15,349 bases of DNA. Origin: a virus. The DNA lies in the UHGV virus genome UHGV-2196677, one strand, 5' to 3'. The translations under genes were made by a program, and so were the position numbers. Numbering within the stretch: the first letter of the stretch is position 1; each line of letters starts with the position of its first letter. Positions 3,620 through 4,045 of this stretch are shown in pieces. A model generated the notes under the pieces. That model did not search any database. It had not been told where the DNA came from and saw nothing but the letters and a program-made list of their open reading frames with translations.

Positions 3620-4045
3620 ATGACGGCGCAAATATCAGCTTACGGGCGGCTGGTGGCTGACCCGCAGTTAAAGACCACCAGCAAGGGCACACAAATGGCG
3701 ATGGCGAGTATGGCGGTCCCCCTTCCATGCAATCAGGCAGATGACGGAACGGCGACGATGTGGTTATCCGTCCTGGCGTTTGGCAGACAGGCTGACGCAC
3801 TGGCAAAACACCACAAAGGCGAACTGGTAAGCGTGGCCGGTAACATGCAGGTGAGCCGGTGGACGGGCCAGAACGGCGAAACGAGGCAGGGATGGCAGGT
3901 TATCGCAGACAGCGTAATCAGTGCGCGAACGGCGCGACCGGGCGGCAAAAAAGGCCAGCAGGGGCAGGCTACTGATGCACTGAACAGGGCAAAGCAACAG
4001 ACAGGCCAGCACGATGATCCGTACGGGGACGGGATACCGTTTTAA
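3620..4045 (+). CDS. ssb: single-stranded DNA-binding protein-like (141 aa)
   Basis: The N-terminal 100 aa align by eye to the OB-fold of bacterial SSB (GRLVADPQL..., WLSVLAFGRQA, KGELVSVAGNMQVSRWTGQNGETR). A Gly/Gln-rich linker and C-terminal tip DDPYGDGIPF resemble the canonical acidic DDDIPF tail. GGAG lies 10 nt upstream of the ATG. Confidence 0.7.
   Translation: MTAQISAYGRLVADPQLKTTSKGTQMAMASMAVPLPCNQADDGTATMWLSVLAFGRQADALAKHHKGELVSVAGNMQVSRWTGQNGETRQGWQVIADSVISARTARPGGKKGQQGQATDALNRAKQQTGQHDDPYGDGIPF

What the first reader, a model, noticed from the sequence alone, without database searches (positions are those of the whole stretch)
3620..4045. Short SSB paralogue with a modified acidic tip
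The element encodes its own 141-aa SSB-like protein. The OB-fold core is recognisable, but the C-terminal tip is DDPYGDGIPF rather than the canonical DDDIPF, and the linker is short. Since the SSB tip is the docking site for many host replication and repair proteins, an element-specific tip could redirect or compete for those partners. This may be relevant to how the element replicates or interferes with a helper phage or the host.
Basis: partly seen in the sequence, partly recalled or inferred. Interest (0 to 1): 0.45.

Follow-up and report, generated by a model that had tools for sequence, protein, structure and literature searches.

The report
Stock SSB of E. coli phage satellites
The gene is a real, intact single-stranded-DNA-binding protein that sits beside the replication origin of a phage satellite (a PICI), and its unusual-looking tail is the normal tail of SSBs in this group of satellites, found in about a third of E. 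coli genomes, so it is not special to this element.

Summary
Window 3620-4045 (+) encodes a 141-aa SSB: OB core aa 1-103, a 28-aa basic linker, and the tail DDPYGDGIPF.

The window is a ~19.3-kb PICI-type satellite at tRNA-Gly, similar to the published EcCIMP1. The ssb gene lies just after the DUF927 replicase gene and a textbook PICI origin (two iteron sets flanking an AT-rich core).

- **Distribution:** the same SSB clade occupies this slot in EcCICFT073, O157 islands and capsid-forming PICIs. It matches 1,803 of 5,426 complete E. coli genomes.
- **Tail:** across the clade the tail is D-D-P-[YFW]-G-D-x-I-P-F. It aligns in register with E. coli F171-DDD-IPF177. It keeps F, P, I, the D173 equivalent and the F171-equivalent aromatic, and replaces D172 and D174.
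- **Not element-specific:** an identical SSB sits beside two different replicase types.
- **Functional:** dN/dS is about 0.18 overall and lowest in the tail.

Best reading: an auxiliary replication SSB that coats satellite ssDNA and docks host replisome proteins through a conserved IPF anchor. Altered partner preference is untested and not excluded. Ordinary; low interest.

The parts
1283..3409 (+). Satellite replicase (pri-rep type): 708-aa DUF927 primase/helicase
   Evidence: Pfam DUF927 E=2.5e-46; PHROG 1139 'DNA primase' E=1.5e-174
3433..3450 (-). Origin iteron set 1: two tandem copies of TGCGGGTTA (AACCCGCA on the minus strand)
   Evidence: 12 copies of AACCCGCA in the window against 0.54 expected
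3455..3495 (.). AT-rich core of the origin (GC about 0.23), candidate melting site
   Evidence: [quoted passage not shown]
3495..3560 (+). Origin iteron set 2: four copies of [AG]TAACCCGCA, spacing 11/21/21 nt
3606..3609 (+). GGAG ribosome-binding site, 10 nt before the ATG
   Evidence: read from the sequence
3620..3928 (+). ssb, OB-fold ssDNA-binding core (aa 1-103); W48, F54, W81 = E. coli W54, F60, W88
3929..4012 (+). ssb, disordered linker (aa 104-131): 28 aa, net charge +4; varies by block indels across the clade
4013..4045 (+). ssb, C-terminal tip DDPYGDGIPF (aa 132-141) plus stop codon
4082..4579 (+). ProQ/FinO-family RNA-binding protein, a frequent downstream neighbour of this SSB (SSB-ProQ-PerC trio)
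   Evidence: Pfam ProQ E=6.8e-24; same order in L012-L023

Best explanation
This is the replication-module SSB of a Gram-negative phage-inducible chromosomal island (PICI). When a helper phage induces the island, AlpA-driven rightward transcription expresses the DUF927 primase/helicase and, just downstream of the origin, this SSB. The replicase binds the iterons and melts the AT-rich core. The SSB's OB domains coat the exposed single strands. Its disordered tail ends in a conserved I-P-F anchor that plugs into the same hydrophobic pockets on host replication and repair proteins that host SSB uses (Pol III chi, DnaG, PriA and others). This supplies extra, satellite-dedicated SSB while helper and satellite both replicate and host SSB is limiting. 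Shown: gene identity, fold, position next to a PICI-type origin, clade-wide conservation of the tail, purifying selection, and independence from replicase type. Inferred: ssDNA binding, oligomeric state, docking to host partners, timing of expression, and the 'extra capacity' benefit.
For: SSB identity and fold. ssDNA-stacking residues W54/F60/W88 conserved. Element is a PICI: integrase next to tRNA-Gly, AlpA (PF05930, 69 bits), AntA/B, Bro-N, Icd-like, DUF4222, replicase, origin, att repeat at window 14843-14860; same architecture as the experimentally validated EcCIMP1 (PMC11773190). Origin directly upstream of ssb with the published PICI layout; PMC6092414. Same SSB clade in the same slot in EcCICFT073, an O157 island, a capsid-forming PICI-type island and others. 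SSB is classed with Primase/DUF5906 as the PICI replication category, colocalised with mapped origins: PMC10111431. Family matches in 1,803 of 5,426 complete E. coli genomes, 2,338 of 2,340 places chromosomal; no homologue above about 31% identity in 50,697 phage records. Tail consensus over 107 proteins: -10 D97, -9 D95, -8 P96, -7 Y87/F13/W6, -6 G86, -5 D106, -4 N51/G21/D21/E12, -3 I101, -2 P103, -1 F107. Tail in register with E. coli F171-DDDIPF, keeping the positions that contact chi (PMC3045619). Identical SSB beside DUF927 (L008, L010) or D5_N/DUF5906 (L009), and a near-identical tail beside a RepA-family helicase, so the tail most likely addresses a constant partner set, namely the host. 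dN/dS: all 0.18, OB 0.185, linker 0.206, tip 0.055.
Against: No experiment exists on any PICI SSB (literature searches). The EcCICFT073 rep gene plus origin alone drive plasmid replication (PMC6092414), and EcCIMP1 has no ssb, so the SSB is dispensable for basic replication and its benefit is unproven. The tail lacks the D172 and D174 equivalents, which make salt bridges or H-bonds with chi K132 and R128, so binding to host partners could be weaker or selective. The strongly conserved DDP-Y-G stretch hints at a determinant beyond generic acidity. The dN/dS estimate rests on only 10 distinct, phylogenetically non-independent CDS, with saturated dS in the 10-codon tip.
Confidence: 0.7

Rival explanations
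1. Competitor or decoy. The satellite SSB, with its less acidic tail, short basic linker and divergent OB core, titrates host SSB-interacting proteins or occupies helper-phage ssDNA, and so interferes with helper or host replication.
For: Two of the three Asp next to IPF are replaced; these contact the basic rim of chi. The OB core is only 24% identical to host SSB, with H55 replaced by L at the tetramer interface position, so it probably forms separate homo-oligomers that could compete. PICIs are known to interfere with helpers (PMC6092414).
Against: The gene sits in the replication module next to the origin, not among interference or cargo genes. The known E. coli PICI interference mechanism is packaging redirection (title and abstract of PMC6739421). 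[quoted passage not shown] No PADLOC defence model matches.
Confidence: 0.1
2. Element-specific docking. The conserved DDPYGDxIPF tail recruits a satellite-encoded partner (the primase/helicase, the small upstream ORF, or ProQ/FinO) rather than host proteins. This would be analogous to T7 gp2.5 or T4 gp32 tails binding their own replisome proteins (own knowledge).
For: The DDP-[YFW]-G segment is conserved more tightly than generic acidity would need. SSB-Ct to primase contacts are known for E. coli DnaG (abstract of PMC5872125).
Against: The tail is constant while the neighbours change. Replicases are DUF927, D5_N/DUF5906 or RepA-family, and an identical SSB is found with two of them. The upstream small ORF is absent here but present elsewhere, and ProQ is absent in CFT073-type islands.
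Confidence: 0.1
3. Immune interplay. A non-host SSB could act as a trigger, or as a decoy, for SSB-sensing defence systems. It would affect how helper, satellite and host defences interact.
For: Several systems sense foreign SSBs: Retron-Eco8, AbpAB, DARNA, DRT10 (titles and abstracts listed). This SSB's core is very different from the host's.
Against: Purely circumstantial. The position in the replication module and the wide distribution are explained without it. No defence-system profile matches the SSB or its neighbours.
Confidence: 0.05
4. Decaying relic with no function.
For: The neighbouring PerC gene is frameshifted in this island. The O157 copy has a P-to-S change at the ssb-113 position.
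Against: The ORF is intact and annotated as intact. dN/dS is about 0.18 and the tail is the most conserved segment. There are hundreds of cluster members and matches in 1,803 genomes.
Confidence: 0.03

Closest known systems
E. coli chromosomal SSB (PF00436 / TIGR00621; PDB 1EQQ, 4MZ9)
   Same: OB fold. Conserved W54/F60/W88 equivalents. Disordered tail ending in I-P-F, with an Asp at -5 and an aromatic at -7 in the same register.
   Different: Only 24% identity in the core. No W40 equivalent, and H55 is replaced by L. Linker is 28 aa and net +4, against 56 aa G/Q/P-rich and net +1. The D172 and D174 equivalents are Gly. 141 aa against 178 aa.
SSB of the prototype PICI EcCICFT073 (WP_000126698.1, CFT073 island between roxA and phoQ) and of O157/cfPICI-type islands
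   Same: Same clade (nucleotide identity about 77% over the first 329 nt). Same slot: replicase, origin, (small ORF), SSB, PerC. Tail ...GGDDPYGDDIPF.
   Different: 136 aa, with a 13-aa linker deletion and an 8-aa insertion. Asp rather than Gly at -4. Paired with a DUF5906-type primase. A small ORF overlaps its start. No ProQ gene.
EcCIMP1, a PICI of E. coli MP1 mobilised by podovirus Kapi1 (PMC11773190)
   Same: Element architecture: int, AlpA-type HTH, AntA/B, DUF4222, Icd-like, DUF927 primase, then virion DNA-ejection protein genes, PerC. About 20 kb, at a tRNA gene.
   Different: EcCIMP1 has no ssb. Its cargo includes a 'phage DNA ejection protein', a lytic transglycosylase-domain protein and a DUF2824 protein, rather than epsilon15-type virion proteins. 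It integrates at tRNA-Thr.
Conjugative-plasmid SSBs (IncF and others) and enterobacterial phage SSBs
   Same: Mobile-element SSB paralogues with an IPF-type tail. IncF tails (...DDYGFSDDIPF) also deviate from DFDDDIPF upstream of the anchor.
   Different: Those are close kin of host SSB (about 70-90% identity in the OB domain), are 160-184 aa, and keep acidic residues at -4 and -5. The PICI clade is a separate, much more divergent lineage.
Short SSBs of other integrase-helicase-capsid islands (for example P0255, 140 aa)
   Same: 35-55% identity. Same size, with the conserved ...SAR(T/S)xRPxG junction. Same satellite-like context of int, helicase, SSB, capsid.
   Different: Tail consensus is P-F-D-D-x-[IL]-P-F. 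Gly at -6 occurs in 1 of 69 representatives, against 86 of 107 in the E. coli PICI clade.

Membership tests
Bacterial SSB (PF00436 / TIGR00621) | OB-fold domain scoring above the curated family thresholds | tested here: met
   PF00436 60.1 bits against 26; TIGR00621 61 bits against 53.95
Bacterial SSB (PF00436 / TIGR00621) | Three-dimensional OB fold like solved SSBs | tested here: met
   AF2 pLDDT 81-93 over residues 1-100; top 50 Foldseek PDB hits are all SSBs, probability 1.0, TM (target) 0.64-0.80
Bacterial SSB (PF00436 / TIGR00621) | Aromatic ssDNA-stacking residues (E. coli W40, W54, F60, W88) | tested here: met
   W54, F60 and W88 equivalents conserved (W48, F54, W81); W40 equivalent is Cys. 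Roles of these residues are from own knowledge of the E. coli SSB-ssDNA structure.
Bacterial SSB (PF00436 / TIGR00621) | Disordered linker followed by an acidic C-terminal tip ending [IL]-P-F | tested here: met
   Residues 104-141 have pLDDT below 50. Tip is DDPYGDGIPF with three Asp and the IPF terminus. It is less acidic than canonical next to IPF.
Bacterial SSB (PF00436 / TIGR00621) | Homotetramer; high-affinity ssDNA binding; binding of SSB-interacting proteins through the tip | not testable with these tools
   Needs purified protein (SEC-MALS or AUC, EMSA, ITC with chi, PriA, ExoI)
Gram-negative PICI (phage-inducible chromosomal island) | Tyrosine integrase at one end and a specific att site, with flanking direct repeat | tested here: met
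   Integrase next to tRNA-Gly. The tRNA 3' end is repeated at window 14843-14860 with one 1-nt gap.
Gram-negative PICI (phage-inducible chromosomal island) | AlpA-type regulator and unidirectional rightward gene order | tested here: met
   PF05930 69.4 bits; nearly all genes are on the + strand
Gram-negative PICI (phage-inducible chromosomal island) | pri-rep gene followed at once by an origin with two iteron sets flanking an AT-rich region | tested here: met
   against the description in PMC6092414
Gram-negative PICI (phage-inducible chromosomal island) | Small size (roughly 10-20 kb) and no complete phage morphogenesis or lysis modules | tested here: met
   About 19.3 kb. The only virion genes are three epsilon15-like ones.
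Gram-negative PICI (phage-inducible chromosomal island) | Helper-phage-dependent induction, excision, packaging and high-frequency transfer | not testable with these tools
   Needs induction and transduction experiments. The helper is presumed to be epsilon15-like from the cargo homology (inference).

The most novel reading that the evidence does not exclude
The PICI SSB clade may have evolved a selective tail. It keeps the I-P-F anchor, the D173 equivalent and the F171-type aromatic. It has lost acidic residues at -4 and -6 and has fixed a DDP-[YFW]-G stretch. With its short basic linker, this could make satellite replication forks recruit only a subset of host SSB partners. For example, they might keep replisome and restart factors (chi, DnaG, PriA) while evading nucleases or recombination mediators (ExoI, RecQ, RecO). 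Alternatively it could out-compete host SSB during helper induction. The result would be a satellite-private replication compartment.
Probability: 0.12. Interest if true: 0.55.

Novelty: new member of a known kind. Interest (0 to 1): 0.2.

Why it matters
As found, it matters little. It is a correctly annotated SSB in the replication module of a known class of satellite, and its tail is the clade norm.

Three modest points remain:
- PICI SSBs form a very common lineage (matches in about a third of complete E. coli genomes), they are experimentally untouched, and they are distinct from host, plasmid and phage SSBs.
- The clade offers a natural mutational series at tip positions -4 and -6, plus an ssb-113-like P-to-S variant in O157. 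This could help show which tip residues set partner preference.
- Foreign SSBs are now known triggers of several defence systems, so a resident satellite SSB could matter for how defences, helpers and satellites interact.

Tried and rejected
1. 'Element-specific tip': rejected. The tail is clade-wide, and an identical protein occurs with different replicases.
2. Pseudogene or relic: rejected by dN/dS and conservation.
3. A phage-derived SSB, for example from the epsilon15-like helper: rejected. There is no homologue above about 31% identity in 50,697 phage records.
4. A conjugative-plasmid-type SSB: rejected. Those are 70-90% identical to host SSB in the core, against 24% here. The plasmid hits of 60% identity or more that I inspected were an island-like circle (L002) and a chromosomal fragment filed as a plasmid (L004). 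The Sodalis pSG2 hit (55% identity) is a genuine mobilisable plasmid SSB and was not pursued.
5. Defence-system component: no PADLOC match.
6. Known RNA elements in the window: no Rfam family at gathering threshold.
7. Own promoter or terminator for ssb: the consensus scan gave nothing on the + strand between the replicase gene and the ProQ gene. This fits co-transcription but is weak evidence.
8. Literature on PICI SSB function or tail: three searches found only a classification of SSB as a PICI replication gene (PMC10111431).

Full report
**1. Observation**

The ORF at 3620-4045 (+) is present exactly as described. It has an ATG start, encodes 141 aa and ends ...QHDDPYGDGIPF. A GGAG lies 10 nt upstream of the start.

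It is a bona fide SSB by several independent measures:
- Pfam PF00436, E=2.4e-16, 60.1 bits against a cut-off of 26.
- NCBIfam TIGR00621, 61 bits against 53.95.
- PHROG 44, E=4e-39.
- Sequence hits to 27 solved SSBs.
- An AlphaFold2 model built on a 33-sequence alignment has a confident OB fold over residues 1-103 and a disordered tail over 104-141.
- All top Foldseek matches in the PDB are bacterial SSBs at probability 1.0.

Against E. coli SSB (sequence verified as identical to PDB 1EQQ/4MZ9) the core is only 24% identical. The equivalents of W54, F60 and W88 are conserved. W40 is not, and H55 is Leu. The linker is 28 aa with net charge +4. The E. coli linker is 56 aa, G/Q/P-rich, with net charge +1.

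**2. What the element is**

The window matches a chromosomal island at 99.9% in E. coli 82.0312. In that genome the island lies between tRNA-Gly (next to actS) and yqeG. Its gene order is:
- tyrosine integrase
- AlpA (PF05930, 69 bits)
- AntA/B and Bro-N antirepressor-like genes
- YlcI, Icd-like, DUF4222
- a 708-aa DUF927 primase/helicase
- ssb
- ProQ/FinO
- an Ant-like small gene
- a frameshifted PerC
- three large genes about 78% identical at the DNA level to epsilon15 virion protein genes

The 3' end of the tRNA is repeated at window 14843-14860, which makes the island about 19.3 kb. This is the architecture of Gram-negative PICIs (PMC6092414). It is closest to the experimentally validated EcCIMP1, which carries a 'phage DNA ejection protein' and a lytic transglycosylase-domain protein in the place of the epsilon15-type genes and has no ssb (PMC11773190).

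**3. Position of ssb**

The 210-bp spacer between the replicase gene and ssb holds:
- two tandem AACCCGCA iterons on the minus strand (3433-3450)
- a 22.5%-GC stretch
- four iterons on the plus strand (3495-3560, spacing 11/21/21 nt)

The octamer occurs 12 times in the window against 0.54 expected. [quoted passage not shown] The ssb gene is thus the first gene after the origin. A consensus scan found no + strand promoter or terminator between the replicase and ProQ genes. This is weak evidence, but it fits one operon.

**4. The SSB clade**

- The word-indexed search found 742 relatives.
- The gene family matches 1,803 of 5,426 complete E. coli genomes, with up to six copies per genome. Of 2,340 places, 2,338 are chromosomal.
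- The 50,697 phage records hold nothing above about 31% identity.
- Plasmid records hold ten hits at 60% identity or more. Those inspected were an island-like circle and a chromosomal fragment filed as a plasmid.
- The same clade occupies the same slot (replicase, origin, sometimes a small ORF, SSB, then ProQ and/or PerC, then cargo) in EcCICFT073, an O157:H7 island with a RepA-family helicase, a capsid-forming PICI-type island, and islands carrying lambda-type capsid genes, autotransporters or antiterminator Q.
- Mageeney et al. class 'Primase, SSB and DUF5906' as the PICI replication category, colocalised with mapped origins (PMC10111431).
- More distant relatives (35-55% identity, 125-150 aa) again sit in satellite-like contexts of integrase, helicase, SSB and capsid.

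**5. The tail**

Over 107 complete clade members the last ten positions are:

| Position | Residue counts |
|---|---|
| -10 | D 97 |
| -9 | D 95 |
| -8 | P 96 |
| -7 | Y 87, F 13, W 6 |
| -6 | G 86 |
| -5 | D 106 |
| -4 | N 51, G 21, D 21, E 12 |
| -3 | I 101 |
| -2 | P 103 |
| -1 | F 107 |

. DDPYGDGIPF is therefore an ordinary clade member.

The wider family ends P-F-D-D-x-[IL]-P-F, and position -4 is also variable there. Gly at -6 is the clade-specific change: 1 of 69 representatives outside the clade, against 86 of 107 inside it.

In register, Y135-G-D-G-I-P-F141 aligns with E. coli F171-D172-D173-D174-I175-P176-F177. Published mapping of the chi-SSB interface gives these roles (PMC3045619):
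- P176 and F177 sit in a hydrophobic pocket, with the terminal carboxylate on K124.
- D174 bonds to R128.
- D173 interacts with R135.
- D172 contacts K132.
- F171 sits in a second shallow pocket.

The satellite SSB keeps F, P, I, the D173 equivalent and the aromatic. It loses the D172 and D174 equivalents.

Tails sampled from other enterobacterial mobile-element SSBs:
- Three of the four phage SSBs sampled end in canonical tails (...DFDDDIPF or ...MDDDIPF).
- The fourth, Lederbergvirus NM-3, has an internal IPF followed by a 15-aa extension.
- IncF plasmid SSBs end ...DDYGFSDDIPF.
- An IncC/F plasmid SSB ends ...MDDDAPF.

Deviation upstream of the anchor is therefore not unusual among the plasmid SSBs sampled. 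Those proteins are, however, close kin of host SSB, unlike this lineage.

**6. Functionality and selection**

I computed Nei-Gojobori dN/dS over 10 distinct coding sequences:

| Region | dN/dS |
|---|---|
| Whole gene | 0.18 |
| OB core | 0.185 |
| Linker | 0.206 |
| Tip (10 codons) | 0.055 |

The linker also changes by whole-block indels (a 13-aa deletion and an 8-aa insertion), while the tail is retained. Caveats: the sample is small, the lineages are not independent, and dS in the tip is saturated. The gene is not a relic.

**7. Is the tail tuned to an element partner?**

An identical SSB protein (P0011) lies beside a DUF927 replicase in two loci and beside a D5_N/DUF5906 primase in a third. 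Near-identical tails accompany a RepA-family helicase. The small upstream ORF and the ProQ gene come and go. A tail that stays constant among variable element proteins most simply addresses constant partners, which are the host's. This is an inference.

**8. Mechanism**

The best-supported reading is an auxiliary replication SSB.
- On induction it coats ssDNA opened at the adjacent origin by the satellite replicase.
- Through its IPF anchor it docks host SSB-interacting proteins.
- It is auxiliary because the EcCICFT073 rep gene plus origin alone replicate a plasmid (PMC6092414), and because EcCIMP1 lacks the gene.
- The short, charged linker would be expected to lower cooperative binding and raise tail-core self-interaction. 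This is by analogy with E. coli linker variants (PMC7145534) and is an inference.

Rival readings cannot be excluded, but each lacks positive evidence:
- Competition or decoy for host partners.
- A satellite-encoded partner for the tail.
- Interplay with SSB-sensing defence systems.

No PADLOC model matches the SSB or its neighbours.

**9. Comparison and novelty**

The protein meets every testable defining feature of the bacterial SSB family, and the element meets every testable feature of Gram-negative PICIs. RefSeq already annotates the protein as an SSB (WP_000126713.1), and PICI SSBs are already listed as replication genes. Three things are not in the literature I could search: any experiment on them, the description of the clade-wide tail variant, and the fact that they form a lineage apart from host, plasmid and phage SSBs. 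I rate it a new member of a known kind, of low interest. There is a small chance (about 0.12) that the tail encodes real partner selectivity.

**10. Verdict**

Observation confirmed. Interpretation partly supported: the satellite does carry its own SSB with a non-canonical tail, but the tail is the clade norm rather than element-specific, and it keeps the canonical docking anchor in register. Alignment shows the tail is the standard variant for this class of mobile-element SSB, and there is no evidence of special partner specificity.

Noticed in passing
window 14196-14349 (also L008 8962-9012): There is a second cluster of the origin iteron AACCCGCA: three copies at 21-nt phasing on the minus strand plus two tandem copies on the plus strand. 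It reproduces the ori layout in inverted orientation about 10.7 kb away, about 500 bp inside attR. Another DUF927-type PICI (L008) also has a second cluster. This recalls the P4 ori plus crr arrangement (own knowledge).
   Followed up: partly
window 5646-12993: The PICI carries three large genes (843, 686 and 925 aa) about 78% identical at the DNA level to epsilon15 / phiV10-group virion protein genes. One has a transglycosylase-like segment. EcCIMP1 carries a 'phage DNA ejection protein' and a lytic transglycosylase-domain protein in the same place, and a Klebsiella island carries a tape-measure gene there. This suggests a PICI subgroup whose cargo is helper-matched DNA-delivery proteins. The helper here is presumably an epsilon15-like podovirus.
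   Followed up: partly
L006 11001-11411 (E. coli O157:H7 strain 9234): The O157:H7 island copy of this SSB ends ...DDISF. This is Pro-to-Ser at the penultimate residue, the same change as the classic E. coli ssb-113 (P176S) allele that disrupts partner binding (PMC3045619). Ser at -2 is seen in 3 of 107 clade proteins.
   Followed up: no
L002 (NZ_CP033626.1, Klebsiella pneumoniae 'plasmid' 22,859 bp): This is a circular record made of a PICI-like island (int, HTH, AntA/B, DUF4222, Icd, primase-helicase, SSB, PerC, tape measure). About 4.4 kb is duplicated at both ends of the record. It is possibly an excised, episomally replicating satellite, or an assembly concatemer.
   Followed up: no
L034, L035 (IncF plasmids); L032 (Salmonella phage NM-3): IncF plasmid SSBs end ...[ED]DYGFSDDIPF, a DDYG-containing tail loosely like the PICI DDPYG motif but in a different register. 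The Lederbergvirus NM-3 SSB has an internal ...IPF followed by a 15-aa extension (APVTLPFPRHAIHAI).
   Followed up: no
window 4985-5210 and 4560-4976: The PerC-family regulator gene downstream of ssb is annotated as frameshifted in this island. The 138-aa ORF overlapping the end of the ProQ gene matches an anti-repressor Ant PHROG (E=2.3e-26).
   Followed up: no
window 1283-3409: The DUF927 replicase shows weak similarity (E about 1e-9, far below the cut-off) to the SCCmec cassette chromosome replicative helicase Cch1. This hints at a broader link between island replicases.
   Followed up: no
window 14843-14860: The attR copy of the tRNA-Gly 3' end carries a 1-nt deletion relative to the intact tRNA at attL. 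This fits the report that tRNA fragment damage at attR may be restricted to PICIs (PMC10111431).
   Followed up: partly
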